64,000 bases of DNA from Candidatus Tayloriibacteriota bacterium. GTDB taxonomy: Bacteria; Patescibacteriota; Minisyncoccia; Phycocordibacterales; PALSA-1337. The notes beneath the pieces are model-generated. The model saw nothing but the letters and a program-made list of their open reading frames with translations. It did not search any database and was not told the DNA's origin. How positions within the stretch are numbered: position 1 is the stretch's first letter; each line of letters opens with the position of its first letter. The DNA is taken from the NCBI GenBank assembly GCA_903857825.1, contig CAIOGI010000009.1, positions 7,203 to 71,202 of the forward strand, written 5' to 3'. Position numbers and translations under genes: made by a program. This document shows positions 524-46,705 of this stretch, one piece after another.

Positions 524-645
524 ATAATTTTAATTATTAAATAATTCTCCCCCGCCTTCACCAAATGCTCCACCAAAATATTCGTATACCCCATTTCATA
601 TCGGTACCATGCTGGCAGATTTTTCATGTTTTTCGACTTTTTCAT
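520..645 (-). pseudogene. displaced GAPDH C-terminal fragment A (att remnant)
   Basis: Translates to MKKSKNMKNLPAWYRYEMGYTNILVEHLVKAGENYLIIKII. The intact gap at 48030-49022 ends ...LAWYDNEMGYTNTLVRHVIEAGKLI. The 21 nt tattcgtataccccatttcat (578-598) are identical to 48071-48091. Confidence 0.7.
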
Positions 646-975: not shown

Positions 976-1968
976 CTAGTAGTGAAGTGCTTTAGTTCTT
1001 GGCATTTTGTATTTTCGCATTCTTTGATTCCTTGGTACATTTCTGAATGCATCATATCGTCTCTGCAAATCGGGACCAGTCATCATGGTATAAATCATCG
1101 AGCTCTCCAAGCTGGAATGGCCAAGAATATTTGAAACATCTGAATTCGATCCGCCTTTGTTTACAATATCACGACCCATGAAATGTCTCATAGAGTGAGC
1201 ATTCAGAGTTGGTATGCCAGCACGGTTAGAATTTGTGCGTAACATTTCAGCAACTCCTACCACGGACATTCTTCGTCCTCTTACTGCATTTTGTCCACAT
1301 TTAGAGATCGATATAAATAAGGCATCAAGATCTTCAAAAGTAAAAAGTGAAAACAAATGTCTTCGTTTTTTGACCCATCTCTTTAGAAGAGCATTCGTGC
1401 TTGGTGTCCAGAATATTTCTCGGATCGGACGACGGCCACGAGATTTTTCAGTTCTGATCAGGGCTGTTCTCTTGCTCAAATTTAGGTCGCTTACATTGAG
1501 TGATAGTATTTCTCCATTTCTCGCGCCAGTATCCCATAGCAATGCCATCAGAGCACGATTTCTAATATGATGCGGTTTATTATCCTTCGGTATGGAGTTA
1601 ATAAGTTTTCTATATCCCTGTTCTGTTGCAATACGTGGTATGTTGTACTCCTTACGAGGAGTAGGTATAAGTGATTCGTTAATCACATTGAATTTCTGTA
1701 GGTTATAAAATTCAAAGAATTTCTTAAGCGCTAATGTGACAATAATTATGCCGTTCCGCTTCCAGCCGAGATCTTTCATCATATTCAAATAGTTCATCAC
1801 GTCATTGAGCGTGATGGATTCGATATGCGGATTACGCAAGTAGAGGCAAAATATTTTGAGAACCTTGTCATATCTAACTACGGTATGACTGGATACCTTG
1901 ATCTGTCTCCAATTGCTAAATTCATTTATTGCGTCTTTGAATAACATAATGGCAACCAAAAAGTCCAC
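976..1968 (-). CDS. int: tyrosine recombinase / phage-type integrase (XerC/D family)
   Basis: C-terminal catalytic motifs HSMRHFMGRDIV ... LGHSSLESSMIYT (R..H..R..Y). The ORF track uses GTG at 1968; an in-frame ATG at 1948 (MLFKDAINE...) is the more likely start. Confidence 0.85.
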   Translation of the reverse strand: MDFLVAIMLFKDAINEFSNWRQIKVSSHTVVRYDKVLKIFCLYLRNPHIESITLNDVMNYLNMMKDLGWKRNGIIIVTLALKKFFEFYNLQKFNVINESLIPTPRKEYNIPRIATEQGYRKLINSIPKDNKPHHIRNRALMALLWDTGARNGEILSLNVSDLNLSKRTALIRTEKSRGRRPIREIFWTPSTNALLKRWVKKRRHLFSLFTFEDLDALFISISKCGQNAVRGRRMSVVGVAEMLRTNSNRAGIPTLNAHSMRHFMGRDIVNKGGSNSDVSNILGHSSLESSMIYTMMTGPDLQRRYDAFRNVPRNQRMRKYKMPRTKALHY

Positions 1969-2331: not shown

Positions 2332-2355
2332 GATTTTTGACGGAATAGACACAGA

Positions 2356-3779: not shown

Positions 3780-3884
3780 AGATACATTTTATCACTTGTT
3801 ATTAATCAAGCAAAGCCGACATGTTCAAATCGATATGAAATGAGGACATTACTCAATTTTTTATATATATGGTAATTATACCCT

Positions 3885-4187: not shown

Positions 4188-4198
4188 TTCCATCACCC

Positions 4199-5233: not shown

Positions 5234-5300
5234 ATCGTGTTCAATTATACAACAATCCCCCGCCCTTATAAAGATGCGGGGGATTGTATATAAAGCCTTA

Positions 5301-5732
5301 CTATCCGTTGATCTCTGCTCTGGTCAGAGGACCAAAGAATCCAGTGACATATCCGATGCCTGGATGTGCTGCTTGAAACGCTTTCAGCGCCGCAAAGGTG
5401 ACTGGACCGAAATAGCCAGTATCAGTGGGATGCTTGAAAAAGCCTTCAGCGCGGAGGAGTTTCTGGAGCTCCATCACCTCATTGTCTTGCATGCCCATAC
5501 GCAAGTCTTTTGTGAAGAGGAATGTCTCCGCTCCCAAGACTCGAGGGGTTGCAACTGTTACAACGGGCACAGGAACATACCAACCTCCACCACCGCCACC
5601 ACTACTGTAACTACCACTGCTGCTGCTACTGCCACTACTTCCGTAGCCGTACGCCGTACCAAAACCAACTGCTGAAATCAGCACAAGGCTAAGTGCTGTT
5701 AGAGTTGATTTTATGAATATTTTTTTGTTCAT
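5301..5732 (-). CDS. secreted peptidoglycan-binding domain protein with a Gly/Ser-rich linker
   Basis: Signal peptide, then a poly-G/S stretch, then a PG_binding_1-like region (MELQKLLRAEGFF...GYFGPVTFAALKAFQ). Confidence 0.6.
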   Translation of the reverse strand: MNKKIFIKSTLTALSLVLISAVGFGTAYGYGSSGSSSSSGSYSSGGGGGGWYVPVPVVTVATPRVLGAETFLFTKDLRMGMQDNEVMELQKLLRAEGFFKHPTDTGYFGPVTFAALKAFQAAHPGIGYVTGFFGPLTRAEING

Positions 5733-5854
5733 AATTTTTTATTTGGCGATATTATTAAAGCCAAACATTTATTAATAATAATTATACTATAGACCAAACG
5801 CGAAGTTAAGGCTTTTATTCACGTTCCAAACATGTTACCATAAAAGAAAGTTAT

Positions 5855-7363: not shown

Positions 7364-7366
7364 AAA

Positions 7367-8497: not shown

Positions 8498-8498
8498 A

Positions 8499-10442: not shown

Positions 10443-11697
10443 TAGGTGCCTTCACCTCTGATCGAACAAGGGCTTTAATTCTCATGAAATAAATAACTCG
10501 GACAGTTACAAGCATGCATATAGATGCTATCAAAGTTGCGTATATCGGTCCCATATATCCCATAAGACGTAATAATATAATACTGAGAACAACATTAAAA
10601 ATGGCAAGTACGGAATAAAATATCGTCATAATTTTTGCATGGCCAGTGGGAATGATGATACCTAAATCAACTGTTAGGGCAGAAGCATAGAAAACAAAAA
10701 TCATTACTGAAAACGGTAAAATTTGAAATAATAGATCATTGTAATATGCCGGATAAAATTGCTTAACGAAAATAGGAATGAGAAACATGCTTATAGTTCC
10801 GATTGTTACTGCCGCCAACATAGTCAGTAGCGTATATTTTTTTAGATGTGAGTGGATACTTTTATATTCCCCCCGCATATTCAAATGAGTGAAGTTTGGT
10901 GCAATTACCTGGGCCAAGATCGCAAAAGGACCCGATAAAATCATAAAGATGCGATTCAAAAAGTCATAGGTGGCAATTTGGTCAAGATACCCGTAGTGAC
11001 CAAGTAAAACTATATCTGTGCGAGAAAAGATCTGGTAACCAACTGCAGCAACCCCACAAATAAATGAATAGGTGGCAATATTCTTTAGGACAGACCGGTC
11101 TATTCTAAAACTCAATTCTTTATGTGCAATCGCTAGTGCGATAATCAGAATGGAATAAAATACAATTTGGCTTACCATCGCTCCGTATATGCCATATTTC
11201 TGGACTAGAAAATATATAGGAATAACGAAAACAATCCCTATACCCATAGTGATCAGTGATAAATATTTAAATCTTTTTAAACCGCGAAAAATCCCATCAT
11301 AAAGATAGGAGATCGGGATTAGAAATGTGAGAATGACTATGAATAAAACATAACTCACTTGCATATGTAGGATGTATGTATTTATAACAATAAAGCCTAG
11401 TGAGAGCGTGGCTGCTACTGTCGCAATCAGTATAAATGAACTTGCTACAATTGATTTTAGTTTTGTCTGGTCGGTTTTCGAGTACTCAGCGACATACTTA
11501 CTTGTGGCTGTCGATATCCCGAAGTCCCCCACTAACCCAAGTAGAACGGCAATTGATGATACATAGCTATAAAGACCCACCTTCCCAGGATCTACAAGAT
11601 GCGCCACGATGAAGAATATGAATATATTCATTCCTTGTTTTACGATTAATTGCGCACCTCTCCAAATGGAGGATTTGATTATATTATTCATGTTCAT
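10432..11697 (-). CDS. Wzx-like oligosaccharide flippase / polysaccharide biosynthesis protein (MOP superfamily)
   Basis: 12-14 TM helices with a polysacc_synt-like layout. Lies next to the GT genes. Confidence 0.55.
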   Translation of the reverse strand: MNMNNIIKSSIWRGAQLIVKQGMNIFIFFIVAHLVDPGKVGLYSYVSSIAVLLGLVGDFGISTATSKYVAEYSKTDQTKLKSIVASSFILIATVAATLSLGFIVINTYILHMQVSYVLFIVILTFLIPISYLYDGIFRGLKRFKYLSLITMGIGIVFVIPIYFLVQKYGIYGAMVSQIVFYSILIIALAIAHKELSFRIDRSVLKNIATYSFICGVAAVGYQIFSRTDIVLLGHYGYLDQIATYDFLNRIFMILSGPFAILAQVIAPNFTHLNMRGEYKSIHSHLKKYTLLTMLAAVTIGTISMFLIPIFVKQFYPAYYNDLLFQILPFSVMIFVFYASALTVDLGIIIPTGHAKIMTIFYSVLAIFNVVLSIILLRLMGYMGPIYATLIASICMLVTVRVIYFMRIKALVRSEVKAPIIS

Positions 11698-12649
11698 TTT
11701 GGAAATAACGATATGAAATCATCGCTGTGTTAATTGTTACAAGTGACAAAGTGTCCATCCAGGGTTTAACAAGGAAACTTTCAAAAAACATTCCTGTCTC
11801 TATAAATGATTTGGCTGACAGACCAAACACGGCCACAATATATGAGATCAATAGTACATTCGATATAAAGGGGGCAATAAATATAGATACCAATAAAAAT
11901 GCTAGTCCAATCAAGGGAATATTATATTTAAATAGAAGACTAAAAGGGTCCTTCTTGTTATTTTTTATCAGAAAATTTCTTGATCTAGCCCCTTTTATCC
12001 ATACCCTGAATAATTCACCAAACTCTGAACGATTTTTATGCAGCAACTTTGCTTGTGGGTTATATTGAATTAAGTAACCAACTTTTCTTACTCTCTGGCA
12101 TATTTCCTTGTCTTCGGATCGAGGTATCTCAATTGATCCATTCTCAAACTTCTCGAGAAAATATCCAGATTCCTCTAACACAGCTCTCCTTATTGTAAGG
12201 TTGCACCCAGGATATGTTTGGACTTTCCTGGTTTTCAGATATCGGGGATATCCCTCAAACAGAGAAACTCCTAAGTAATCAGATACCCATGTTTTTATCA
12301 TAGGCATAACCATTCCTCCCCCAGCCCCCACATTCGGGTTCCTAAATGTCTCCTCATGATATTTCAGATAGTCTTTGTCTAGTTTTAAGTCTACATCCAA
12401 AAAAACCAGTATTGCTCCTGATGAATTAATTATTCCACAATTTCTTGCCTCAGAAAGTCCTCGTCTTTTTTCAGTTAGCACTTTAATAGGATATTTTGAC
12501 GCAACTTTCAGGGAGTTATCAGTCGAATCATTGTCAACATACACTATTTCATACTGATCTTTTGGGTAATCCTGTACAAGACAGGATTCAATGCACGAAT
12601 CCAAATTTTCTTGTTCATTATATCCACAAATAATTAAGCTGAATTTCAT
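11684..12649 (-). CDS. family 2 glycosyltransferase
   Basis: LIICGYNEQENL...VDNDSTDNS...FLDVDLKL, the GT2 DXD pattern. C-terminal TM segments. Confidence 0.75.
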   Translation of the reverse strand: MKFSLIICGYNEQENLDSCIESCLVQDYPKDQYEIVYVDNDSTDNSLKVASKYPIKVLTEKRRGLSEARNCGIINSSGAILVFLDVDLKLDKDYLKYHEETFRNPNVGAGGGMVMPMIKTWVSDYLGVSLFEGYPRYLKTRKVQTYPGCNLTIRRAVLEESGYFLEKFENGSIEIPRSEDKEICQRVRKVGYLIQYNPQAKLLHKNRSEFGELFRVWIKGARSRNFLIKNNKKDPFSLLFKYNIPLIGLAFLLVSIFIAPFISNVLLISYIVAVFGLSAKSFIETGMFFESFLVKPWMDTLSLVTINTAMISYRYFQNEHE

Positions 12650-13767
12650 AAATATTTACTATATTGCCTCGATATAATTTCTCTGTCATAAAACTTAATC
12701 GCTCTTTGCCGTCCTTCGTCTCCGAGAGCGGATATCCTATTCCAGTCCAAAACTAGAAGATTAATCGTCTTACCGATGGTTTGATCGTTTTCAGGAGGAA
12801 CAACTAATCCTGAACCGTTTATTATTTCCACGCAGCCAGAAGAATTACTTGTAATCACAGCACACCCTGCTAACATTGCCTCAAGTAATACCATTCCAAA
12901 ACTCTCATATTTAGATAAAAGACAAAATATGGCCGCCTGCTCCAATAAATCCTTATATTCTTTTCCATTGTTATCAAGCCAGCCATGAAAAATAATTTTT
13001 GTTTTAGATCTTTCAGCGAGTTGCTTGAGTTCATTCATCATCGGACCGTCGCCCGCTATATGGACTTCCCATTTTATATCTTCGTCTGATACAGCCCTGA
13101 TCAAATGCTGAAAACCTTTACTTCGCAATAATCGTCCTGAAGAAAATATTATTTTCCTTTTCGATTGAGGGTGAAACTTTTCAATATCAATTCCATTGGG
13201 AATTATTATTATTTTTTTACGATCAAACCTAGGATATACCTTTACTATCTTATTTCTAAGAAAGTCTGATGGTGAAATAACAATCTTCGCATTGTCCAAT
13301 ATAATTTTCCATATTTTTACAAGAAATGGATATATCATTTTGAATCTAGAATTATACCCAATAACATCGCTTCCATGAGCCGTTACTATAAATGGCAGAC
13401 CAAACTGTTTTTTAAGTATATATGACAAAATTCCTGTAGGAATGATGAAATGGGAGTGGCAGATATCGTAATAATTTTGCTTAAGCAAACTTCTACACTT
13501 TAAATATCCAAACAGTAAATATGTGAGTTGTTCCCAAGGATGACAGATTTCCTTTCTACTTCGTAGAGACTTTACTCGATAGATTCTAAATGAATCGTTA
13601 ATTTTTTCATACGCCGGCAGGAGCTTATAACTCATAGTGACCACATCGATGTCAAATTCTCCAGTTTCGCTCAATCCTTCAGCAATATCATAAGACACTG
13701 GACTTGCTCCGCCACCTAGAGGCGGAAATTCGTAATTTAGCAGAAGTATCCTTTTCTTGGTTGCCAT
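12646..13767 (-). CDS. family 4 (group 1) glycosyltransferase
   Basis: GT4 C-terminal signature ESFGMVLLEAMLAGCAVITSNSSG... Confidence 0.8.
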   Translation of the reverse strand: MATKKRILLLNYEFPPLGGGASPVSYDIAEGLSETGEFDIDVVTMSYKLLPAYEKINDSFRIYRVKSLRSRKEICHPWEQLTYLLFGYLKCRSLLKQNYYDICHSHFIIPTGILSYILKKQFGLPFIVTAHGSDVIGYNSRFKMIYPFLVKIWKIILDNAKIVISPSDFLRNKIVKVYPRFDRKKIIIIPNGIDIEKFHPQSKRKIIFSSGRLLRSKGFQHLIRAVSDEDIKWEVHIAGDGPMMNELKQLAERSKTKIIFHGWLDNNGKEYKDLLEQAAIFCLLSKYESFGMVLLEAMLAGCAVITSNSSGCVEIINGSGLVVPPENDQTIGKTINLLVLDWNRISALGDEGRQRAIKFYDREIISRQYSKYL

Positions 13768-14705
13768 TATTTTCTTATAATTTCGCGCACATAATAACGC
13801 TTTTCATATGGTGAGTTATTCAGATGAATCCGGATCAGGAAATCCATGATGATACCAAAGCTGAAAAACATGATACCCGCGATAAAGAGAAAAGCTGTGA
13901 GAAAGAACCATCCATTTCTATTGAGGGAAAGTCCAAAAACAACTTTTCCATATATAGTCCAGAAACCGGAGAGGAAACCTACAAAAAAAGAGGCGAGACT
14001 AAGGTATCCGAAAAGATGAAGGGGGCGCTGTGAATATTTCTGGATGAACCAGATCTTTATTAGGTCAATAAAGCCACGAATGGCTTTCGTGCAGTTATAT
14101 TTACTTTTTCCGTTAACCCTGGGTCGATGATTTACTATGATCTCACCTATTCTGAAACCTTTCCATTTCAGGATCGGCAGGATATAGCGATGCATCTCAC
14201 CGCCGATATCAAGACTTTTTGCGGCTTCTCTTTTATAAACACGCAGAGTGCAACCAGTATCATGTACAACGTCTGAGATAATAAGCCGACGCATGAGTCT
14301 TCCCATGCGAGTAAGAATATTTATGCTTCCATTATCCTTTCTTTTCTTGCGCCAACCTGCCACAACATCAAGATCGTCCTGTGTCAGTTTCTCAACAAGT
14401 TTGGGAATATCAGCAGGATCATTTTGTCCGTCTCCATCAAGAGAAATTATGAAATTACCGTCCGCCGCCTTGAAGCCAGCATCCAACGCCACAGCTTGTC
14501 CGTAGTTTCGGTTCAAATTGATTATAGTGACACCGTGAAGGGATTTCAGCTCTCCTAGAGTAGAATCGGTACTTCCATCGTTGATATAGATAATCTCGGA
14601 ATAGCCACGAAGATGGCTCATTGCCGACTTTATTTCACTGTCTAGATTTGTTATGTTTCCTGCTTCGTTAAAGACTGGAACAATGACTGAGTATTCATTT
14701 TTCAT
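13767..14705 (-). CDS. polyprenyl-phosphate sugar synthase (GtrB/DPM1/ArnC-like GT2)
   Basis: SVIVPVFNEAGNI...INDGSTD...LDGDGQND, plus two C-terminal TM helices as in GtrB. Confidence 0.8.
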   Translation of the reverse strand: MKNEYSVIVPVFNEAGNITNLDSEIKSAMSHLRGYSEIIYINDGSTDSTLGELKSLHGVTIINLNRNYGQAVALDAGFKAADGNFIISLDGDGQNDPADIPKLVEKLTQDDLDVVAGWRKKRKDNGSINILTRMGRLMRRLIISDVVHDTGCTLRVYKREAAKSLDIGGEMHRYILPILKWKGFRIGEIIVNHRPRVNGKSKYNCTKAIRGFIDLIKIWFIQKYSQRPLHLFGYLSLASFFVGFLSGFWTIYGKVVFGLSLNRNGWFFLTAFLFIAGIMFFSFGIIMDFLIRIHLNNSPYEKRYYVREIIRK

Positions 14706-14779
14706 GTTTTAAAGTATAACACATAATATATTGGTTGTCTATTTATCGTGACTAAGGCTTTTGATTTTAAATCATCTAC

Positions 14780-15148
14780 TTATTCCAAGTGTAAATATAT
14801 TTTTTGCTCCCGAATTTTTGATGCCTCAGCTAGAGCTGATGAAATTTCATTTAAATGAAGTCGGATCATCTCGTTTGGTATGTGCATTGTATCGAATCCA
14901 CTTTTATGTGAGTAGTAACCACGACTTAAATCAGACACAATTTGCTCGGGGTTTGTAAGATGTTGTATACCATCGACCTCGATATTAATTTTTGCCTTAG
15001 GAATCGCTAGATCTATGTGCTTAAATCCATCATGAAGTTCTACCAAAACACGAACTCCCTTTTCCTCCAGAGCATTTTTTAAATCGGATGCTTCCTTTGT
15101 TGGAGTTCGATATTTTTTTATTATAATTTTCTGATTTGTTTCTTCCAT
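14780..15148 (-). CDS. DUF559 endonuclease-domain protein (Vsr/restriction-endonuclease-like fold)
   Basis: HIDLAIPKAKINIEVDGIQH matches the DUF559 D...E.DG..H core. Confidence 0.5.
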   Translation of the reverse strand: MEETNQKIIIKKYRTPTKEASDLKNALEEKGVRVLVELHDGFKHIDLAIPKAKINIEVDGIQHLTNPEQIVSDLSRGYYSHKSGFDTMHIPNEMIRLHLNEISSALAEASKIREQKIYLHLE

Positions 15149-15191
15149 AATAAATCTATAATTCTTCTGCTAATCTATTAACATTTTTTTA

Positions 15192-15947
15192 TTAATAATT
15201 TGGGTCAGCGGCATTTGCTGCTTTTCTATAATTACAATGATCACAATCCTGAGCTGCAATTGGCATTTTTCCATCAAGACATTTTTTGATATCGAACAAA
15301 GATTTTTCAACCCATGTACTGTCACCAGTATAGGGTAAAATATCTATATCAAAATCTATTTTTGCGTCAAAGGCTTCGCGGTCTGTCTTACCGTTGCAAT
15401 ACACGAAATATCCTGTATTTGAAACTTTGAATCCTGTTTGGCGTAATAGCCACTGATACATTTCCATTTGACGTTTATAACCCATCTGCCATTCTGCATC
15501 GAGAGTCACTTTAGCTGGCTTACTAGTCGCTTTATAGTCTACAACCACAATCTCACCAGTTTTATCTACCCATAGGTCATCTACAGCTCCTGTCATTATA
15601 AAATTCGTTGGCTTATGATGGTATTGAACCCCTTTGAAGTTCTCTCGCCATTCATTGATCTTTTCATGCTTAAAGGGGACCATATCGAGGCTATAAGCCT
15701 TCATTAGGGGGTGTGGAGTCCCCTTCGCTCGATGTATGTCAAACTCCTTCTTTAGAAGAGTATCTACAGCCGAATTTATGGCAAATGGAAATGGTGGAAT
15801 CTGGCCTACCCCAAGTCGACGATCGATATAAAAACATTTGGGGCATTTTGTGTATAGTTCGATTTTTGATCGAGACAATTTGAAAGGCTCCGTGCTTGCC
15901 GGATCATAGAGGTTTCGTATTCTGTTCGCCTTATAATATTCTGACAT
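15192..15947 (-). CDS. Cas4-like PD-(D/E)XK nuclease (DUF83, RecB family) with a four-Cys cluster
   Basis: CPKC at the N-terminus and CDHC at the C-terminus. GAVDDLWVD, VVVDYKAT (D-x-K) and the QxxxY motif KRQMEMYQWLL. Confidence 0.6.
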   Translation of the reverse strand: MSEYYKANRIRNLYDPASTEPFKLSRSKIELYTKCPKCFYIDRRLGVGQIPPFPFAINSAVDTLLKKEFDIHRAKGTPHPLMKAYSLDMVPFKHEKINEWRENFKGVQYHHKPTNFIMTGAVDDLWVDKTGEIVVVDYKATSKPAKVTLDAEWQMGYKRQMEMYQWLLRQTGFKVSNTGYFVYCNGKTDREAFDAKIDFDIDILPYTGDSTWVEKSLFDIKKCLDGKMPIAAQDCDHCNYRKAANAADPNY

Positions 15948-15950
15948 GTT

Positions 15951-16847
15951 TTATAGGCTATACTGGTAAGATTGGCTGATATAGTCAAGTGCTGCAACTA
16001 TTTCTTCAGGTTTCTCTATTCTAAACTTCGTTTCTCCGGTTCCCCAGTGTCCTTTTTGACTTACATCATGTAATTCGATTCCATTCCTCTTGATCCTGTC
16101 TACAGGCATCGTTATGTGAATCCATAATCCTTTTGCCTGAGGAATAATCTCGCAAAAAATATTTTCAATTTTATAACTGATATATAGTTTGGTAAACTTT
16201 TCCTCTATGTTGGTATCGAGTTCAAAAATCTTCTCTTTTAGTTGATCATAAAGTTCTCGACTTTCTTTCCAACTATCACGAAATAAATGATTTATCGTGT
16301 ATTCTTTTCCGTATTCCCGGACAGGTTTTTCATCGTCTTCACTTACTAGTTTCTTTGATCCACTTAGTTTGAATCCCTTCTGAAAGTTTTCTACATCAAC
16401 CGAAAGAAGGTCGTCATAGAGACGATATTTTAGAAGCTCGATTGTGAACGGCAAAAACTTCACAAGTCCAAGATCAAATTTGTTATAACTTTCAGCTACA
16501 CAAATGACTCGAGGAGATGACCAATCAACTATTATCTCCAGTTTTTTAGCTTGAACAAGTTTTTCAAACTTCTCCTTATGATCAAGAAGCCATTCAAGAT
16601 ACCATGTAGCTTGATTTATTACAGAATCATTCTGAGTACGCTTATATTCAATTATAACGGGAGATCCATTTTGATCAATTCCGATTGTATCGATTCTACC
16701 TTCATTGGTAGTGAACTCAGTATCAAGAAAATAAATACCTAGAATCTCCTTCAGGTTTTCCTCTATTAATCGTTGAATGTCTCGTTCAACAACGCTTCGC
16801 TTTTCGATCTTCACCGCTTTATTATTTTGTATTTTGAATAGAGGCAT
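15951..16847 (-). CDS. NucS/DUF91-like PD-(D/E)XK nuclease domain protein with C-terminal extension
   Basis: GRIDTIGIDQNGSPVIIEYKRTQNDSVINQATWYLEWL parallels the NucS motif G.IDILA.D..G.LVVIELKR...Q..RY..W. Confidence 0.45.
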   Translation of the reverse strand: MPLFKIQNNKAVKIEKRSVVERDIQRLIEENLKEILGIYFLDTEFTTNEGRIDTIGIDQNGSPVIIEYKRTQNDSVINQATWYLEWLLDHKEKFEKLVQAKKLEIIVDWSSPRVICVAESYNKFDLGLVKFLPFTIELLKYRLYDDLLSVDVENFQKGFKLSGSKKLVSEDDEKPVREYGKEYTINHLFRDSWKESRELYDQLKEKIFELDTNIEEKFTKLYISYKIENIFCEIIPQAKGLWIHITMPVDRIKRNGIELHDVSQKGHWGTGETKFRIEKPEEIVAALDYISQSYQYSL

Positions 16848-16940
16848 ACAATGTGGATGTTCTCAATATGATAACATGCGAAAAGAATTAATTGAAGGCC
16901 TGATATAGATTTCGAACCGTAACTCTGATATAATTATTTA

Positions 16941-18323
16941 ATGAAAAATATCTGGCTTCTCACCGAAGAACGACCTAAAAACGATGTCATTCTCACTATT
17001 TTGAATAAGGTCGGGACAGACAATAATTTTAAAGTTCAATCTGAGGGTGCGAAGGTTATACCTATTATGAAAGATGGTTGTTTTACTTTTTTATACAAAG
17101 TTGAAGATGTTAAATGCGAAGGATTTGAAAATATATTTATTAAAATAGCCAGTGGTAATTCTAGCTTCGTCGATTTTTTGATATTTCTCCAAGAAGCAGA
17201 GCCTGATCAAAGTTCAAAACCTCTCTATGCAATAGAAGAAACGAAAACCGATGATTCAGAATCTCGTAACACAGGAGTCTACCAACGCTGTAGTAAGTTT
17301 GTATATGTAGAATTCTATTATCCGGGCATTAGGAAAATAATGCTCTACAGTTTGCAGATCAAGCAAAAAATAAAACCAACAGTAACCAATATTTTCGGCA
17401 CACGAATGCTACGAACGATAGGCGTTGAAATTCTTGGCAAAACATTTGATGAGGAAGTCATGAGACCATTCACGAGCCTCGATGAGCTAGTTCAAGCAAA
17501 GAGTGCTATGAGAATGCCCCCGACCGGTAATGTCCCTATTCAAATCGAGGTGCACCCTGACAAAATCACAGTATCAGGAAGGCTTTTTAAAGCTGGTGGG
17601 ATAGGCCATGACCCTAATATCGGCGCACTCACCATCATAGCTCTCTGTATTAGACGTTGGGAAAAAGAAAAGCCAATCATCATAACCAAACATGGTTTAT
17701 CTCAAGAACATCTTGGAAGAGGAAACAAATTTATTCAGATCGCCAACAGGCTCAATATCGGGCTTGATGGTTTAAATGTCCAAATTGCAACTCAACATGA
17801 GCTTTATTGGCATTATGAAATGTCCCAAGAAAAGCTAGCCACTATATTTCTCCACGTCCTATTACTCAATTACACGAAAGCAGAAGTCATCTATGCCAAC
17901 CATGGAGGCACGGAGAGAGGATACTTTATGCACAAAGTTCAGGGACCGATCGTGATTGAGAAATATCAAGAAGGAAAACGAGCCGCATATAAGCTTGGCG
18001 ACAAATCTCTGATTATTCACTTACCAGACATGATCATTTTTGATACTGCTAGAAATCAGATCATCAATGTCGAGGGTAAAAAGTATAGTACACGAGCAGC
18101 TGGTATCGAGGAGTTGGCAAACTATTCCTACATTGAAGAAAAAGTGATTCTACCTTCACATAGTCCTTCGGCTTTTATCAGGACCGTTGTTGTTTTTGGT
18201 AGCAAAGAAACTGAACTTAAGGAAAAAGAGATCGGATTTATGCTAAATGAAAATGGAGATCTTGTGTTGGGTAAATATGCTCCTGAAATATTTAAAGAAG
18301 TAGTATCAAAAGCTACAGCCTAG
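16941..18323 (+). CDS. candidate type II restriction endonuclease (context only)
   Basis: 460-aa ORF convergent with the adjacent adenine MTase and overlapping it tail-to-tail by 4 nt. No conserved motif; this is the usual R-M layout. Confidence 0.3.
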   Translation: MKNIWLLTEERPKNDVILTILNKVGTDNNFKVQSEGAKVIPIMKDGCFTFLYKVEDVKCEGFENIFIKIASGNSSFVDFLIFLQEAEPDQSSKPLYAIEETKTDDSESRNTGVYQRCSKFVYVEFYYPGIRKIMLYSLQIKQKIKPTVTNIFGTRMLRTIGVEILGKTFDEEVMRPFTSLDELVQAKSAMRMPPTGNVPIQIEVHPDKITVSGRLFKAGGIGHDPNIGALTIIALCIRRWEKEKPIIITKHGLSQEHLGRGNKFIQIANRLNIGLDGLNVQIATQHELYWHYEMSQEKLATIFLHVLLLNYTKAEVIYANHGGTERGYFMHKVQGPIVIEKYQEGKRAAYKLGDKSLIIHLPDMIIFDTARNQIINVEGKKYSTRAAGIEELANYSYIEEKVILPSHSPSAFIRTVVVFGSKETELKEKEIGFMLNENGDLVLGKYAPEIFKEVVSKATA

Positions 18324-19441
18324 GCCTCTTGTAACGCCAAGTCTTTTTTCTTTAGCTTCCCCACCCTTTTATTTCCAACCTGAGAATTCTCTAGAATATA
18401 TAATTGCTCCTGAATAGTTTTCATATGCTTCGAGTCTCCGTTGCTATTGCTTTTAAACCTGAGGTAATCAATATTCTGCAATGTTACTCGTCCATACTTC
18501 TCTAGAGTTGCAATGATATCTTTCTCAGGCATTGCACCTTCAGAATTGTAGCTCAAAATCAGATAGCGGTATTTAGCTGTTTTTGCCACCTTATCTAAGG
18601 CAAGAAGTGCTGTATTTTTATTACAAAAATCAGATTTTTGATTCTTGTAATCTCTCATTCCTGTTACACCCTTAATCGCAGGACTGTCGTATCGTGCGAT
18701 TGTTTCCAAGAGATGATAGTTCGGTGCATATTGCCGATGGTTATAAGGAGGATCCATATAGAGTATGTCTACATCTAAATCTTCCACTAGATCCATACTG
18801 TTCCTGTTGAACACAGTATGCTCTTTGTCGCCTGAATAAAAACTCATTTCTTTAATTTGAAGCGGCTTTAACGCTCTAGGGTCATACTCCTTAAGAAAAG
18901 CTGCATAGACACCTGAAATATTTGCATAGAAAGGTACACTTTCAATAAGAGAAGCGAGAAGTACAAAATACTCATTTTCATTTATTAATTTTTCTTTCCA
19001 CCATTCTTCTATCAAAAGTCTTATAGCATCAATCTTCTTACCATTCTCGGGTAGAAAGAATTTTCTTTTATGTTCCTGATCCTTAGTTCCTTCATCAGTA
19101 TAATTTTTGTAAATAAAACCTTTAACACCTTTCAATTCGTTCAAATAACTTCTTACAGAATCAAAAGGAGAAGCAAAAAGAATGTTCGATGAGACATCAA
19201 GTGTTTTCAGCAGTTTTTTAAACTCAGGTTCACCATTATTTTCTATATAAGCTTTTTGGAGTACATAAGAAAAATAGAGTAAATCAGAAGACACAATCTC
19301 AAATCCTTTTTCCTTAAAGAATCTTCCAACATTTGAAGTACCAGAAAAGAAATCGCAAAAAACCCCATCTTTTACGCCAGTCGAGGTTACGGCTTGGTAG
19401 ATTCGATCCAGCAATTTTTCTTTGTTGCCAATAAATCTCAT
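18320..19441 (-). CDS. N6-adenine DNA methyltransferase, D12/alpha class
   Basis: Motif X RFIGNKEKLL, motif I FFSGTSNVG, motif IV YMDPPY. Confidence 0.75.
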   Translation of the reverse strand: MRFIGNKEKLLDRIYQAVTSTGVKDGVFCDFFSGTSNVGRFFKEKGFEIVSSDLLYFSYVLQKAYIENNGEPEFKKLLKTLDVSSNILFASPFDSVRSYLNELKGVKGFIYKNYTDEGTKDQEHKRKFFLPENGKKIDAIRLLIEEWWKEKLINENEYFVLLASLIESVPFYANISGVYAAFLKEYDPRALKPLQIKEMSFYSGDKEHTVFNRNSMDLVEDLDVDILYMDPPYNHRQYAPNYHLLETIARYDSPAIKGVTGMRDYKNQKSDFCNKNTALLALDKVAKTAKYRYLILSYNSEGAMPEKDIIATLEKYGRVTLQNIDYLRFKSNSNGDSKHMKTIQEQLYILENSQVGNKRVGKLKKKDLALQEA

Positions 19442-19442
19442 A

Positions 19443-21008
19443 TTAATAGTTTGTGATTAACAGCTCTGCCACCTTGCCGCGCTGATCTTTTTTACTATTC
19501 AAAGTTCGACCAGAGAAAACTTGCTGAATTTTATAACCCTTATAAAGATCCCGAATGAATTCACAATCTGAATTGGAGAGCATCACTTTACAGCCCTTCT
19601 TATCCAAATGATCAATTTTTTCCTTCAGTCTTATTTGATCCTCTTTATGGAATTTCTCTTTAGTATAACGAGTGAAATCAGAATAAACTGATATAGGATA
19701 GTAAGGAGGATCGAGATAAACAAAATCATTAGTGCCAGCATCATTTACCGCCATCTCAAAATCTACTTCTTTTATTGCCACATTTTTTAGAACCGCACTA
19801 GCACTTCTGATTGTATGTTCATCACATATAAGCCGATTGAGAGAGCTGCCTATTGGTACATTAAACTGCCCTTTTTGATTGACCCTATAGATACCATTAA
19901 AACAGGTCTGATTTAGATAAATCATTCTTGCAGCAATTTCAGCTGAATTCAATTTTTGGAAAATATCAATTTCCCGATCTAAATTTCTTACTAAAGGATA
20001 TAATTCTTTTGAGTGTTTTGATCGTAACTCCTTAAGCAGTCTGATCACTTCTTCTGGATTGTCTCGTATACCCTCATACGCCCTGATCAATTCAGTATTG
20101 TTGTCGGCCAGAATCGCCTTTTGAGGTTGGAGATGGAAAAACATTGCCCCTCCACCGAGAAAAGGTTCGTAGTAAGAATTGAATTTTTTAGGTAGAAACT
20201 GTTCGTATTGAGAAATCATCCCTCTCTTGCCTCCTACCCATTGAAGAAAAGGTGTTGCCTTCTCATCTGGTGAAGAATTTGTCTCTCTTTTTACATTTGC
20301 AGTCAGAGGCATGCGTTTCAATAATTTCGTCAATTCGCTTTCATGCGTGTGTACTGATTCAAGCTCTCTAATAATTTTTACAACTACGCCTCTGATCTCA
20401 ACTTCAGTTCTAAAAAAAGGAAGTAGGTTTTGATTTGCCGGTTGCAAACGGAATCTCCCCTTTTCCTTGTAAATCTTTTTTAAGGTTGCCTGATTATCAT
20501 CAATAATTGCGACTACAGTTTGACCATCTTCTGCACTTTGCTGTTCTCGTATAACGACAATATCACCATCAAATATTCCATCATCGATCATGCTGCTTCC
20601 AGCCACCTTTAAAGCGTAGTGCTTTCCTGCATTGGGTATTTCACCCTGAGACAGTACCAACATCTCACCGTGCCTTTCTACTGCTTCAATAGGCAATCCG
20701 GCAGCAATAGTACCTAGAATTGGGACATGAACACTGCCAAGAGCCTTTTTAGGGGCAACAGCTCGAGGTTGATTGATCTCTTTATAAATCAAGCCAGCTT
20801 CCTCAAGTTTTTTTACATGATGATGAGCTGTAGATACCGAAGAAAGTTTTAAATGTCCTTTTATTTCTTCAAGAGAAGGGGCGAACCCATGCTTTTTACT
20901 ATAGGTAGTAAGAAAATCTAATGTCTGTTTTTGTCTTTTAGTTATCATATTACACTTTCGATTTATTTTCGATATCATAATTATAGCGCCACCTAAATTA
21001 AGAAGCAA
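19443..21008 (-). CDS. LexA-like autocleavable repressor (wHTH + S24 peptidase) fused to a Dam-type GATC adenine methyltransferase
   Basis: N-terminal half: MITKRQKQTLDFL..., cleavage site IAAGLP, GSSM (Ser nucleophile), ATLKK (Lys). C-terminal half: FLQWVGGK, FLGGGAMFF, FVYLDPPY, collinear with E. coli Dam. The likely true start is the ATG at 20948 (MITKRQ). Confidence 0.75.
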   Translation of the reverse strand: MLLNLGGAIIMISKINRKCNMITKRQKQTLDFLTTYSKKHGFAPSLEEIKGHLKLSSVSTAHHHVKKLEEAGLIYKEINQPRAVAPKKALGSVHVPILGTIAAGLPIEAVERHGEMLVLSQGEIPNAGKHYALKVAGSSMIDDGIFDGDIVVIREQQSAEDGQTVVAIIDDNQATLKKIYKEKGRFRLQPANQNLLPFFRTEVEIRGVVVKIIRELESVHTHESELTKLLKRMPLTANVKRETNSSPDEKATPFLQWVGGKRGMISQYEQFLPKKFNSYYEPFLGGGAMFFHLQPQKAILADNNTELIRAYEGIRDNPEEVIRLLKELRSKHSKELYPLVRNLDREIDIFQKLNSAEIAARMIYLNQTCFNGIYRVNQKGQFNVPIGSSLNRLICDEHTIRSASAVLKNVAIKEVDFEMAVNDAGTNDFVYLDPPYYPISVYSDFTRYTKEKFHKEDQIRLKEKIDHLDKKGCKVMLSNSDCEFIRDLYKGYKIQQVFSGRTLNSKKDQRGKVAELLITNY

Positions 21009-21338: not shown

Positions 21339-22394
21339 CTAGATCGCAAATTGCGCATTGAGTGCGGCTCTCGTCTTCGGACCGATATGATTTGGCGAGG
21401 GTGCAATCTTATGTGCCTGCTGATACCTGGCATTCGCTGACGCCGTCTTCGGACCGAAGATACCGAGCTCGTCGGCTGGGACGGGTGCGAGAAATCCAAG
21501 TATCATGTACGCTATCTGAGCAAGCTTTACATCTTCATTATTGTCACCGAGAGTAAGGTTCTTCTGCCAAGTGCAATGGAATGCTGATGGGGAGGGCAAA
21601 GCCTTCAGGAAGTCCTGCACATTTGGAGGAATTTCTGCAACCGCCCATTGCTCTATAATATAAGGAGACCATGCTTTCGGATCGTATTTTGCCCTTCCGT
21701 AATTAGCCCAGGACGCACTCCATTCGTTCTGAAGATCGTTATAGATATCGTCTTCCCAACCGAAAGGAGTCATTTGATGTCCTGAAACTATAGTTTTTGG
21801 TATTCGAAGTGGATCTATATCTTTATCTGCCCACGATGGAGTCCATAATTCGTTACCAATTTCAAAGAGTGCGGAAACTGCACCATAAAGATATATGGCT
21901 TCTCGTGTTCTTTGAAAATCGAGAGGAACAGAAACGTAGCCGGGAATTTTATACTTAGCTGCTTCATCAAAAACTTCCTTAGTAAGTTTGTTGTCGTTTC
22001 GATATTCAAGAACCGACAGCGAGGTATCGTTTGGAAGAGTTGCGGTTGTGGCACAGCCATAGAGAACTGCGAGTTTAAATACGAGACGGGGATAAGTTCC
22101 GCCCATTGCTCGATCCTGAAGATCGAACCGTTTTGCAAGTATATCGAGAAAGCGAGGAGAGAAATCGATCATCTTCCCTGTTTTCTTGAGCCAGTAGAGT
22201 TTAAGAGTATCTACGGCACTATGCGATACGCACGCGGGCACGAGTGCTTGCATCATGGGAGATGCGAGTGCTGTTTTGTGTGTAGGAGGAAGTTGTATTC
22301 GTGTTGGAAGTGCTTCGGCTACTGCGGAAGCAACATATCCGTCTCGATAGTCGGGAGGTGAAATAATAGCGCCTGTTGAAAATTGCTCATTCAT
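21339..22394 (-). CDS. endolysin: papain-like cysteine peptidase domain + C-terminal peptidoglycan-binding domain
   Basis: The N-terminus has Q...C (QALVPACVSHSAV), like C1 peptidases. The C-terminus has a PG_binding_1 pattern (LAQIAYMILGF...GIFGPKTASANARYQ). A holin sits immediately upstream. Confidence 0.55.
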   Translation of the reverse strand: MNEQFSTGAIISPPDYRDGYVASAVAEALPTRIQLPPTHKTALASPMMQALVPACVSHSAVDTLKLYWLKKTGKMIDFSPRFLDILAKRFDLQDRAMGGTYPRLVFKLAVLYGCATTATLPNDTSLSVLEYRNDNKLTKEVFDEAAKYKIPGYVSVPLDFQRTREAIYLYGAVSALFEIGNELWTPSWADKDIDPLRIPKTIVSGHQMTPFGWEDDIYNDLQNEWSASWANYGRAKYDPKAWSPYIIEQWAVAEIPPNVQDFLKALPSPSAFHCTWQKNLTLGDNNEDVKLAQIAYMILGFLAPVPADELGIFGPKTASANARYQQAHKIAPSPNHIGPKTRAALNAQFAI

Positions 22395-22398
22395 AAAT

Positions 22399-22599
22399 TT
22401 ATTTGATCATTAAGTTAATAATTCCGGTGATTAATCCGGCAACCGATGCTGTAGCCACAATCCAGAAAAACTTCATAAGCCATTGCTGGTTTGTCTTTAC
22501 GACTGCCATATCCTCTTCAATATGGCTCAAGTGGTTGTCCTTGATTTCTTTGATATCCAACTCAATTTTTTCTATTCTTTTTTCCATATTGTTAGACAT
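22399..22599 (-). CDS. holin-like small membrane protein
   Basis: 66 aa, charged N-terminus and a single C-terminal TM segment. Directly precedes the endolysin. Confidence 0.45.
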   Translation of the reverse strand: MSNNMEKRIEKIELDIKEIKDNHLSHIEEDMAVVKTNQQWLMKFFWIVATASVAGLITGIINLMIK

Positions 22600-46515: not shown

Positions 46516-46521
46516 TGATTA

Positions 46522-46572
46522 TTAAACTACCCTCCCCGCCTTCACCACATGCTCCACCAACATATTCGTATA
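46522..46572 (-). pseudogene. displaced GAPDH C-terminal fragment C (17 codons)
   Basis: YTNMLVEHVVKAGRVV**. Nucleotides 46531-46572 are ~95% identical to 546-587 of fragment A. Confidence 0.6.
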
Positions 46573-46705
46573 CTTTACATAATTATTATAACACTTAATT
46601 CTAATGTTTCTAATATCATCATGAAAATATATGCTTAATACATGTGGGAATTTATGATTATTTTGTTTCAAAGAATTAGCAAATTATATACAAACACTTT
46701 AAAAA

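What the first reader, a model, noticed from the sequence alone, without database searches (positions are those of the whole stretch)
14780..19441. Nuclease/R-M cargo island: DUF559, Cas4-like Fe-S nuclease, NucS-like nuclease, candidate REase and a second Dam-family MTase
Three different PD-(D/E)XK-type nucleases sit in a row next to a convergent REase-MTase pair, all within the prophage between lysis and int. The Cas4-like protein has CPKC...CDHC, DYK and QxxxY motifs. This looks like a phage-carried defence or anti-defence hotspot. The three-nuclease combination does not correspond to a named system I recognise.
Basis: partly seen in the sequence, partly recalled or inferred. Interest (0 to 1): 0.55.

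Follow-up and report, generated by a model that had tools for sequence, protein, structure and literature searches.

The report
Prophage restriction-modification and nuclease cargo island
A prophage of a probable Saccharibacteria (CPR) bacterium carries a restriction-modification system, one of whose methylases is fused to a LexA repressor, next to three unrelated stand-alone nucleases, so this is a mosaic defence island and not a new multi-gene system.

Summary
All five ORFs exist at the stated coordinates and their catalytic residues are intact.

They are not one system. The functional core is a three-gene Type IIS restriction-modification (R-M) system that extends beyond the finding:
- D12 methyltransferase M2, 18320-19441.
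- The neighbouring gene 19443-21008, a full LexA fused to a Dam-family methyltransferase.

In about 95 related loci the REase always comes with M2 plus a second methyltransferase of one of three kinds. The LexA fusion was a single ORF in all 19 loci checked. GGATG/CATCC is specifically depleted around carriers of this system and not around controls, which fits the published prediction of BtsCI-like GGATG enzymes with split methylases.

The NucS-like/DUF5655 protein is PADLOC candidate PDC-S18, a stand-alone gene found in many contexts. The Cas4-like nuclease and the DUF559-like protein are absent from the closest related element. They lie in a 12-kb insertion that also holds a glycosylation cluster.

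The island does lie inside the integrated prophage. Two displaced gap (GAPDH) 3'-end copies mark the attachment sites at about 0.55 and 46.5 kb, and the integrase is at 976-1968.

Verdict: an ordinary mosaic defence island. The notable part is a LexA-fused methylase in a BtsCI/BsmI-group R-M system.

The parts
14780..15148 (-). 122-aa DUF559/Vsr-like small endonuclease-fold protein. It is variable cargo and is absent from the related element L005.
   Evidence: Pfam DUF559 21.4 bits (cut-off 20.6) and MTES_1575 19.3 bits. PDB 3hrl aligns the motif IDL..INIEVDGIQH. An 85% identical homologue lies 650 bp downstream of a Cas4-like homologue in Campbellbacteria genome CP064977 (L017).
15192..15947 (-). 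251-aa RecB/Cas4-like PD-(D/E)XK nuclease with a C-x2-C ... C-x2-C four-cysteine set. It is a stand-alone gene, not CRISPR-associated.
   Evidence: PDDEXK_1 E 7e-15. The TIGR00372 cas4 score is 26 against a cut-off of 65. C35, C38, C235, C238, D123/D124, D137-Y-K139 and Q160..Y164 are invariant. There are more than 8000 homologues, 67-80% identical across CPR lineages. It directly follows R-M or ATPase genes in L017 and L018-20.
15951..16847 (-). 298-aa NucS-like nuclease domain, disordered linker and DUF5655 domain. This is PADLOC candidate PDC-S18.
16848..16940 (.). Divergent intergenic region. A conserved TGATATAAT-type extended -10 element ends 6 nt before the REase ATG, so the REase mRNA is probably leaderless.
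   Evidence: The same TGATAT.. element lies 6-9 nt upstream of the start codon in 14 related loci. The LexA-type operator motif is absent here.
16941..18323 (+). 460-aa Type IIS restriction endonuclease of the BsmI/Mva1269I/BtsCI group, a monomer with two different active sites.
18320..19441 (-). 373-aa D12-class N6-adenine methyltransferase (M2), the methylase that always travels with the REase.
   Evidence: Pfam MethyltransfD12 E 1e-36. PADLOC MTase_II E 2.6e-94, aligned to the N-terminal half of a 646-position two-domain methylase profile. It lies next to the REase in essentially every locus long enough to show it.
19443..21008 (-). LexA fused to a Dam-family methyltransferase (M1). The likely start is the ATG at 20948, giving 501 aa. 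It is the second methylase and the likely autoregulator of the R-M system, and it lies outside the finding's coordinates.
   Evidence: TIGR00498 lexA scores 160 bits (cut-off 111) and TIGR00571 dam scores 267 bits (cut-off 115). A83-G84, S119 and K157 are read directly from the sequence. The gene is a single ORF in 19 of 19 related loci. It is separated from M2 by 1 nt. Its methylase domain aligns to the C-terminal half of the same 646-position PADLOC profile.
20955..20973 (-). Candidate operator ATCGAAAATAAATCGAAAG, a direct repeat with an 11-bp period. It lies between the -10 box and the LexA-Dam start codon.
   Evidence: It is unique in the 64-kb window even with 3 mismatches allowed. It is conserved, in either orientation, at the promoter of the LexA-Dam gene in L005, L007, L032, L034, L035, L038, L041, L042, L064 and L070.
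976..1968 (-). Tyrosine integrase of the element that carries the island.
   Evidence: Phage_integrase E 1e-24. It is 56% identical to the integrase that sits next to the same R-M block in L005.
533..603 (.). Displaced copy of the gap (GAPDH) 3' end, marking the left attachment junction next to the integrase.
   Evidence: Alignment of the three copies. The translation reads WYRYEMGYTNILVEHLVKAGEN. L005 also has a gap 3' fragment beside its integrase.
46519..46575 (.). Second displaced copy of the gap 3' end, marking the right junction of the prophage. The intact gap gene is at 48030-49022.

Best explanation
The region is a mosaic defence island in the accessory arm (lysis to integrase) of a tailed prophage. 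The prophage is integrated into the 3' end of the gap gene of a probable Saccharibacteria (CPR) bacterium. The island holds three independent modules.

(1) A three-gene Type IIS R-M system.
- The 460-aa REase is a BsmI/BtsCI-type monomer. It binds an asymmetric site, most likely GGATG, and cuts the two strands with two different active sites. The N-terminal site is E9/E10-D78-E99/E100..E107..Q115-R116. The C-terminal site is PD363-X14-E378-G-K380.
- Each strand of the site is protected by its own N6-adenine methylase. These are M2 (18320-19441) and the Dam-family domain of the neighbouring LexA-Dam protein (19443-21008). Together they are the split equivalent of the two-domain M.FokI/M.BtsCI methylase.
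- The LexA part (winged HTH plus an S24 autoprotease with the A-G, Ser and Lys residues intact) probably binds the direct-repeat operator over its own promoter. That would autoregulate the M1-M2 operon, in the way that HTH-fused methylases and C proteins control other R-M systems. RecA-stimulated self-cleavage would then raise methylase expression after DNA damage.
- The REase has its own promoter and is probably made from a leaderless transcript.

(2) PDC-S18. This is a stand-alone nuclease whose NucS/Shedu-like PD-(D/E)XK domain is tethered to a YjbR/double-wing-like DUF5655 domain, which probably binds nucleic acid.

(3) A Cas4-like RecB-family nuclease with a four-cysteine metal site, plus a small DUF559/Vsr-like protein. 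Both arrived with a 12-kb insertion that also carries a glycosylation cluster.

Shown: gene content, intact motifs, folds, co-occurrence statistics, integration junctions, GGATG depletion.
Inferred: the recognition sequence, the strand assignment of the methylases, LexA-operator binding and SOS coupling, and the defence role of modules 2 and 3.
For: - Three-gene unit. In 80 metagenome loci and 15 viral loci, wherever the contig is long enough, the REase lies beside an M2 homologue plus a further methylase. That further methylase is a Dam-type domain, an L010-type D12 enzyme or a beta-class N6_N4 enzyme.
- Split methylase. M2 and the Dam domain align to the two halves of one 646-position PADLOC methylase profile. 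PMC2831314 describes 463-472-aa BtsCI-like ORFs with two separate methylases and predicts that they cut GGATG.
- Specificity. GGATG/CATCC ranks third of 512 in depletion in 333 kb of flanks around carriers (z -5.7), but 229th (z -0.2) in 226 kb of control CPR loci.
- LexA fusion. Curated LexA and Dam models are both exceeded. It is a single ORF in 19 of 19 loci, and unfused relatives carry an XRE-type HTH in the same position (P0363). A conserved promoter-proximal repeat is unique in the window.
- Modularity. L005 lacks the Cas4-like and DUF559 genes. PDC-S18 occurs in varied contexts.
- Prophage and attachment sites.
Against: - There is no biochemical evidence for cleavage, methylation or the recognition site.
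- GGATG depletion is modest (observed/expected 0.73). In the window alone it is not significant (z -2.7 to -2.9).
- The N-terminal catalytic motif has a different spacing (E-X6-E-X7-QR) from the published BtsCI-type motif (X14). Sequence identity to BsmI is only about 12%.
- The second methylases of the three locus types are not orthologous. For example, identity between the Dam domain and the L010-type M1 is 27%. Specificities may therefore differ between subgroups.
- The candidate operator is a direct repeat, not the palindrome typical of LexA boxes. In some loci it overlaps the ribosome-binding region.
- NucS/DUF5655 lies directly beside other two-methylase R-M operons in L012 and L013. A functional link to R-M is therefore not excluded.
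- The Cas4-like and DUF559 genes co-occur again in L017, so they may form a pair.
Confidence: 0.75

Rival explanations
1. The three nucleases and the R-M genes act together as one new multi-gene defence system.
For: The genes are tightly packed on one strand, with gaps of 3 nt and 43 nt between the three nuclease genes. NucS/DUF5655 is also directly adjacent to other two-methylase R-M operons in L012 and L013. The Cas4-like and DUF559 genes recur together in L017.
Against: L005 keeps the R-M block and NucS/DUF5655 but has no Cas4-like or DUF559 gene. Among 95 REase loci, only one has a distant NucS/DUF5655 relative and one a Cas4-like gene. Among 15 viral PDC-S18 loci, only one has an adjacent methylase. 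Cas4-like homologues follow quite different genes, namely a type IIG enzyme and an AAA_13 ATPase.
Confidence: 0.05
2. The R-M system is only the convergent REase-M2 pair. On this view LexA-Dam is an unrelated prophage repressor or orphan Dam that happens to lie next door.
For: Many phages carry orphan Dam methylases and LexA/CI-type repressors. This prophage has two further orphan methylases. The Dam domain is only 27% identical to the second methylase of the Capnocytophaga-type loci.
Against: Every REase locus long enough to judge has a second methylase. LexA-Dam is 1 nt from M2 and co-linear with it in 19 of 19 loci. The two methylases match the two halves of one fused methylase profile. The operator-like motif occurs only at the gene's own promoter and not in the phage early region. 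A two-active-site monomer that cuts an asymmetric site needs both strands modified (PMC2831314).
Confidence: 0.1
3. The Cas4-like and NucS-like nucleases serve the phage itself and are not defences of the lysogen. Possible roles are recombination, end processing, host-DNA degradation or anti-defence.
For: The genes lie in a prophage. The Cas4-like protein matches phage families phrog_31195 and phrog_1706. Relatives occur in 13-15 viral contigs each.
Against: The genes lie in the integrase-proximal cargo arm, not in the replication or recombination module at 43-46 kb. There is no partner recombinase or SSB nearby. Nearly all homologues are in cellular CPR contigs, often beside R-M or ATPase defence genes. 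The NucS-like protein matches a defence-island candidate family.
Confidence: 0.12

Closest known systems
BtsCI / BsmI / Mva1269I group of Type IIS restriction enzymes, including the uncharacterised 463-472-aa 'BtsCI-like' ORFs Cup_ORF1489 and Nfl_ORF1032 (PMC2831314, PMC11889245)
   Different: Sequence identity to BsmI is about 12%. The protein is 200 aa shorter than BsmI. The motif spacing is E-X6-E-X7-QR rather than X14. One of the two methylases is fused to a complete LexA. The second methylase is exchangeable between three unrelated families.
M.FokI / M.BtsCI two-domain D12 methyltransferases
   Same: M2 and the Dam-type domain align to the N- and C-terminal halves of a 646-position two-domain PADLOC methylase profile. 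Both are D12-class enzymes with the DPPY motif.
   Different: Here the two halves are separate genes. The second half carries LexA at its N terminus, or an XRE HTH in relatives.
Methyltransferases with N-terminal HTH autoregulatory domains (such as M.SsoII and M.EcoRII-type) and C-protein-controlled R-M systems. This comparison rests on my own knowledge and was not tested here.
   Same: A DNA-binding domain is fused to, or encoded beside, the methylase, and there is an operator-like repeat at its own promoter.
   Different: The DNA-binding module is a full LexA with an intact S24 self-cleavage apparatus. This would add a DNA-damage input, and I found no report of it in the literature searched.
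PADLOC candidate PDC-S18, NucS (EndoMS) and the Shedu SduA nuclease
   Different: It lacks the NucS N-terminal DNA-binding domain. The NucS equivalog scores are 32 and 26 bits against cut-offs of 216 and 252. It carries a DUF5655 domain instead. PDC-S18 has no experimentally shown function that I could find.
Cas4 / AddB-type RecB-family nucleases
   Same: It has the RecB motifs (D, D-x-K, Q-x3-Y) and four conserved cysteines flanking the nuclease core.
   Different: The cysteines are arranged C-x2-C ... C-x2-C. From my own knowledge, the Cas4 pattern is C ... C-x2-C-x5-C. The score is below the TIGR00372 cut-off, and no cas genes were found among the annotated ORFs of the window.

Membership tests
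Type IIS REase, BsmI/Mva1269I/BtsCI group | One polypeptide carrying two different catalytic sites, one per DNA strand | tested here: met
Type IIS REase, BsmI/Mva1269I/BtsCI group | Recognition of an asymmetric sequence with cleavage at or next to it | tested here: inconclusive
   The only evidence is indirect. GGATG/CATCC is specifically depleted around carriers (rank 3 of 512, z -5.7) and not in controls (rank 229).
Type IIS REase, BsmI/Mva1269I/BtsCI group | Two methylase activities, fused or separate, one for each strand | tested here: met
   M2 plus a second methylase lie beside the REase in essentially all of the 95 loci that are long enough. The two match the two halves of a fused methylase profile. 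Strand assignment was not tested.
Type IIS REase, BsmI/Mva1269I/BtsCI group | Published N-terminal motif S/K-D/E-X6-E-X14-QR | tested here: inconclusive
   E99-E100-X6-E107 and Q115-R116 are invariant, but the spacing is X7 and not X14 (PMC2831314).
D12-class N6-adenine DNA methyltransferase (PF02086) | Profile match above the curated cut-off, and the DPPY catalytic motif | tested here: met
   The 373-aa protein scores 127 bits (cut-off 22) and has MDPPY. The LexA-Dam protein scores 189 bits and has LDPPY.
LexA (TIGR00498) | LexA winged-HTH domain plus S24 domain with the Ala-Gly cleavage site and the Ser/Lys dyad | tested here: met
   160 bits against a cut-off of 111. A83-G84, S119 and K157 are read from the sequence. 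Self-cleavage and a role as SOS regulator were not tested. The C-terminal methylase fusion is not a feature of the family.
PADLOC PDC-S18 (candidate single-gene defence) | Full-length match to the family HMM | tested here: met
   PDLC04946, E 1.7e-83, residues 2-295.
PADLOC PDC-S18 (candidate single-gene defence) | Protection against phage | not testable with these tools
   No paper mentioning PDC-S18 was found, and the single paper holding the term DUF5655 was not opened.
NucS / EndoMS | Two-domain NucS architecture (N-terminal DNA-binding domain plus C-terminal nuclease) scoring above the equivalog cut-off | tested here: not met
   Only the NucS_C domain matches (26 bits). NF003270 scores 32 bits against a cut-off of 216, and NF002876 scores 26 bits against 252. 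It works like the NucS nuclease domain but is not a NucS.
Cas4 (CRISPR-associated) | Score above the TIGR00372 cut-off and association with cas genes | tested here: not met
   26 bits against a cut-off of 65. No cas families appeared among the ORFs scanned. Tandem Repeats Finder gave only four short rows, but no dedicated CRISPR-array search was run.
Cas4 (CRISPR-associated) | RecB nuclease motifs plus four metal-binding cysteines | tested here: met
   D123/D124, D137-Y-K139, Q160..Y164, C35, C38, C235 and C238 are invariant. Whether the metal is Fe-S or Zn was not tested.
DUF559 / Vsr-like endonuclease fold | Profile match and the D..E-x-D-G..H motif | tested here: inconclusive
   The score of 21.4 bits is only just above the cut-off of 20.6. 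The motif aligns with the DUF559 structure 3hrl at E 0.3. Pfam Vsr is not matched.

The most novel reading that the evidence does not exclude
LexA-methyltransferase fusions may be a DNA-damage-sensing control device for R-M systems. The fusions found here include this LexA-D12 protein and LexA-N6_N4 proteins such as P0368 and P0428. On this reading the LexA moiety represses the methylase operon. RecA-stimulated self-cleavage, triggered for example by self-restriction breaks or by prophage induction, then raises methylase levels. That would protect host or progeny phage DNA. The recurrent neighbour NucS/DUF5655 could be an accessory nuclease of such two-methylase systems.
Probability: 0.3. Interest if true: 0.6.

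Novelty: new variant of a known kind. Interest (0 to 1): 0.45.

Why it matters
CPR bacteria rarely carry CRISPR (PMC6509639), so R-M and stand-alone nucleases may be important antiviral tools for them.

- The region gives a concrete prophage-borne example of such a defence island.
- It assigns a fold to a large family that sources annotate only as 'hypothetical' (over 2300 proteins), and a probable recognition site (GGATG) and gene composition to its R-M system.
- It shows that the system's second methylase is modular. One version is fused to a complete LexA, which would couple methylation control to the SOS response.
- It also offers candidates for new GGATG-type nicking or Type IIS enzymes.
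- It does not reveal a new class of defence system.

Tried and rejected
- The single-protein scan of genome contigs gave only 2 loci. An alignment query should have been used.
- PDB sequence searches with the REase and with M2 found nothing.
- tblastn of the Cas4-like protein against the phage collection found nothing.
- k-mer avoidance in the window alone was uninformative. It became informative only after pooling the flanks of many carrier loci and adding a control set.
- The consensus promoter and terminator scan was no better than shuffled sequence (29 promoter-like sites against 22 expected).
- The operator motif was sought in the REase promoter and across the prophage and was not found. 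This argues against LexA-Dam being the prophage master repressor.
- An apparent truncation of the Cas4-like gene in L004 was only a different start call. The DNA is identical.
- A search for PDC-S18 found no paper. A search for DUF5655 found one unrelated genome paper, which was not opened. A search for LexA-methylase fusions listed nothing whose title or abstract described one.
- Rfam found only one tRNA, and Tandem Repeats Finder gave only four short rows.
- Compositional evidence argued against prophage membership: the island is 34-39% GC and the phage core 42-53%. I considered that the island might lie outside the prophage, and rejected this on the attachment-site and integrase evidence.

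Full report
OBSERVATION

- The 122-aa protein (14780-15148, minus strand) only just passes Pfam DUF559: 21.4 bits against a cut-off of 20.6. Its best PDB sequence match is the DUF559 structure 3hrl (E 0.3), which aligns the motif D..E-x-D-G-x-x-H.
- The 251-aa protein (15192-15947, minus) is a PDDEXK_1/RecB-family nuclease (E 7e-15). It scores below the curated Cas4 cut-off (26 against 65 bits). C35-x2-C38, C235-x2-C238, D137-Y-K139 and Q160..Y164 are invariant in 21 homologues.
- The 298-aa protein (15951-16847, minus) has a NucS_C nuclease domain and a DUF5655 domain. It matches PADLOC candidate PDC-S18 over its full length (E 1.7e-83). D53 and E67-Y-K69 are invariant in 56 homologues.
- The 460-aa protein (16941-18323, plus) has no Pfam or NCBIfam hit, but it matches a PADLOC Type II REase model (E 4.8e-59).
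- The 373-aa protein (18320-19441, minus) is a D12-class methyltransferase (E 1e-36). Its 3' end overlaps the REase 3' end by 4 bp.

None of the nucleases is degenerate.

CONTEXT

The window holds a tailed prophage.
- Structural and lysis genes: portal 35160-37382, large terminase 37977-39440, protease, major capsid protein, tape measure, tail fibres, holin 22399-22599 and lysin 21339-22394.
- Host genes begin at about 48 kb: gap, dihydroorotate dehydrogenase, an alkylation-repair enzyme, an MFS transporter and others.
- Three copies of the 3' end of gap are present. The intact gene is at 48030-49022, and displaced fragments lie at about 46519-46575 and 533-603.
- A tyrosine integrase (976-1968) sits beside the left fragment.

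The integrated element therefore spans about 0.6-46.5 kb. This holds although the island's GC content (34-39%) resembles the host more than the phage core (42-53%). The stretch 46.6-48.0 kb looks like the remnant of another element at the same site.

The same island is 100% identical in four metagenome contigs. The closest genome relative is a Candidatus Saccharibacteria MAG (L005). Most homologues of all the island genes come from CPR/Patescibacteria.

WHAT BELONGS TOGETHER

L005 has the same layout: integrase (56% identical), a 338-aa protein, a TrpR-like protein and a gap fragment. In L005 these are followed directly by NucS/DUF5655 (82%), REase (84%), M2 (85%) and a LexA-Dam fusion (90%). 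L005 lacks the Cas4-like gene, the DUF559 gene and the whole 12.2 kb (window 3768-15966) that also holds a glycosylation cluster.

I then collected 80 metagenome loci and 15 viral loci encoding REase relatives and mapped the neighbours. Wherever the contig allows, the REase is accompanied by an M2 homologue plus at least one further methylase. Three arrangements occur:
- (A) REase convergent with M2 and a Dam-type methylase, as here.
- (B) A different D12 methylase, then M2, then the REase, in one operon. Capnocytophaga canimorsus is an example.
- (C) M2, then a beta-class N6_N4 methylase, then the REase.

In type A the Dam-type methylase is fused to a complete LexA in a single ORF in 19 of 19 loci examined. 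The unfused relatives carry an XRE-type HTH at the same position (P0363 is HTH_26 plus D12).

NucS/DUF5655 appears near the REase only in the window, in L005 and, at 30% identity, in L050. A Cas4-like gene appears near the REase only in L066.

The functional unit is therefore REase + M2 + LexA-Dam (16941-21008). It is not the five genes of the finding.

THE R-M SYSTEM

An AlphaFold model of the REase, built from 65 homologues, is confident (pLDDT 92, pTM 0.90).
- Foldseek against the PDB finds only BsmI (probability 1.0, E 6e-7).

BsmI is a monomeric Type IIS enzyme with two different active sites that nick the bottom and then the top strand of the asymmetric site GAATGC (PMC11889245). Its metal ligands are Asp9, Asp91 and Glu109 in the N-terminal site, and it has a C-terminal PD-X17-E-X-K motif. 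The protein here has invariant E9/E10, D78, E99-E100-T-K102, E107 and Q115-R116 in the N-terminal half. It has invariant P362-D363-X14-E378-G-K380 in the C-terminal half.

The BtsCI paper (PMC2831314) places BtsCI (GGATG 2/0) in the same group. It notes uncharacterised 463-472-aa relatives that are each flanked by two separate methylases. Those methylases correspond to the N- and C-terminal halves of the fused M.BtsCI/M.FokI. The paper predicts that these enzymes cut GGATG.

Two results here fit that prediction.
- M2 aligns to positions 1-345 of one 646-position PADLOC Type II methylase profile (E 2.6e-94), and the Dam domain aligns to positions 365-641 of the same profile (E 2.4e-20).
- GGATG/CATCC is avoided around carriers. 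With the R-M genes masked, in 333 kb of flanks it is the third most depleted of 512 pentamers (325 observed against 445 expected, z -5.7). In 226 kb of control CPR loci without this system it ranks 229th (z -0.2). Generic targets such as CCAGG and GGACC are depleted in both sets.

The signal in the window alone is weak (z about -2.8). The N-terminal motif spacing also differs from the published one. I therefore rate the GGATG assignment as likely but not established.

THE LEXA FUSION

The neighbouring gene exceeds the curated cut-offs for LexA (160 against 111 bits) and for the Dam family (267 against 115 bits). Numbered from the likely start at 20948, it has the A83-G84 cleavage site, S119 and K157. 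Its stop codon is 1 nt from the M2 start, so the two methylases form an operon.

A 19-bp element lies between its -10 box and its start codon. The element is ATCGAAAATAAATCGAAAG, a direct repeat with an 11-bp period. It is unique in the window even with three mismatches allowed. It recurs, in either orientation, at the promoters of the orthologous genes in at least ten other loci. It is absent from the REase promoter. There, a conserved TGATAT-type -10 element sits only 6-9 nt from the start codon, which suggests a leaderless transcript.

A search of 1.84 billion cluster representatives found few full-length LexA-D12 fusions (P0361, P0366). It also found LexA fused to N6_N4 methylases (P0368, P0428). 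LexA-methylase fusion is therefore rare but recurrent.

My inference is that the LexA moiety autoregulates the methylase operon and could link it to RecA-mediated cleavage. Binding and cleavage are untested. The repeat is not a classical palindromic SOS box. I found no description of such fusions in the searchable literature.

THE OTHER THREE NUCLEASES

The protein lacks the NucS N-terminal domain and fails the NucS equivalog cut-offs. Its homologues (more than 2400) occur in the following places:
- directly after other two-methylase R-M operons (L012, with an S24 peptidase gene nearby, and L013);
- after an AAA_13/SMC ATPase beside an integrase (L114);
- between a helicase and a serine recombinase (L014);
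- alone among housekeeping genes (L116, L118);
- in 15 viral contigs, only one of which has an adjacent methylase.

This is the behaviour of a stand-alone defence-island gene. A looser link to R-M is not excluded.

Cas4-like nuclease. It has more than 8000 homologues, 67-80% identical across several CPR lineages, but only 13 in viral contigs. It sits immediately downstream of a type IIG R-M enzyme (L018-20) or of an AAA_13 ATPase next to two methylases (L017).

DUF559-like protein. In L017 a DUF559 homologue that is 85% identical lies 650 bp further on. The two genes may therefore travel as a pair. The prophage also encodes an orphan C5 methylase (39968-41095), so a Vsr-like repair role for the DUF559 protein is conceivable but untested.

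VERDICT

The interpretation as a single three-nuclease system is not.

The region is a mosaic of independent modules in prophage cargo. Its core is a BsmI/BtsCI-group Type IIS R-M system that is probably specific for GGATG. That core is a new member of a known kind. Its LexA-fused second methylase makes it a new variant.

Interest is moderate. The LexA-methylase coupling and the assignment of a large 'hypothetical' family are useful. No new class of system is revealed.

Noticed in passing
window 19443-21008 (-); operator 20955-20973: A full LexA, with the A-G cleavage site and the Ser/Lys dyad intact, is fused in one ORF to a Dam-family methylase. A conserved direct-repeat motif lies at its own promoter. 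Relatives carry an XRE HTH in place of LexA, and LexA is also found fused to N6_N4 methylases (P0368, P0428).
   Followed up: yes
window 5855-14705: A 9-kb glycosylation/polysaccharide cluster lies inside the prophage cargo arm. It contains a PMT_2-type glycosyltransferase, two unknown proteins of 376 and 647 aa, a Polysacc_synt flippase, and GT2, GT4 and GtrB-like GT2 enzymes. It may modify the cell surface (seroconversion-like) in a CPR host. It is absent from the related element L005.
   Followed up: partly
window 533-603, 46519-46575, 48030-48100: The gap (GAPDH) 3' end is present three times, which marks tandem integration at one site. The 46.6-48.0 kb stretch, with two ORFs of 147 and 224 aa and no Pfam hit, looks like the remnant of a second element. 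L005 has a gap fragment beside its integrase too.
   Followed up: partly
window 39968-42402 (-): The phage core holds two further orphan methylases. One is a C5 cytosine methylase (375 aa). The other is a 436-aa N6_N4 methylase whose N-terminal part matches PHROG ParB-like families. The element therefore encodes four DNA methylases in all.
   Followed up: partly
window 43149-43715 and 43290-43350: A Phage_rep_O-like gene contains 23-bp tandem repeats (2.1-2.2 copies), which are probably origin iterons.
   Followed up: no
window 16925-16940 and 14 related loci: A conserved TGATAT-type extended -10 element lies only 6-9 nt upstream of the REase start codon. This suggests leaderless REase mRNA, which could delay or limit REase expression.
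   Followed up: partly
flanks of L005-L100 compared with control loci L012-L020 and L101-L118: GGATG/CATCC is specifically depleted (observed/expected 0.73, rank 3 of 512) in DNA around this R-M family, but not in other CPR loci. CCAGG and GGACC are depleted in both sets.
   Followed up: yes
window 4199-5732 (-) and 3462-3779 (-): The integrase-proximal cargo holds a CAP/SCP-domain secreted protein (344 aa), a peptidoglycan-binding-domain protein (143 aa) and a TrpR-like regulator. The regulator is 75% identical to its L005 counterpart.
   Followed up: no
L005 15602-17008; L114 10397-10903: Diversity-generating-retroelement genes lie near related integrase-borne islands in other CPR contigs. 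L114 has a Pfam bAvd accessory protein and an RVT_1 reverse transcriptase. In L005 I judged the equivalent pair by reading the sequences.
   Followed up: no
L012 2767-6945: The same logic recurs with unrelated enzymes. The locus has an S24 peptidase (LexA/CI-like, 214 aa), an N6_N4 methylase, a PvuII-like REase, a second N6_N4 methylase and a DUF5655 protein that is 68% identical to the one here.
   Followed up: partly
L017 (Campbellbacteria CP064977) 731-6763: A D12 methylase and an N6_N4 methylase lie beside an AAA_13 ATPase, a Cas4-like gene (77% identical), two small ORFs and a DUF559 gene (85% identical). Identity this high in another CPR lineage suggests recent horizontal transfer of a Cas4-like/DUF559 pair.
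   Followed up: partly
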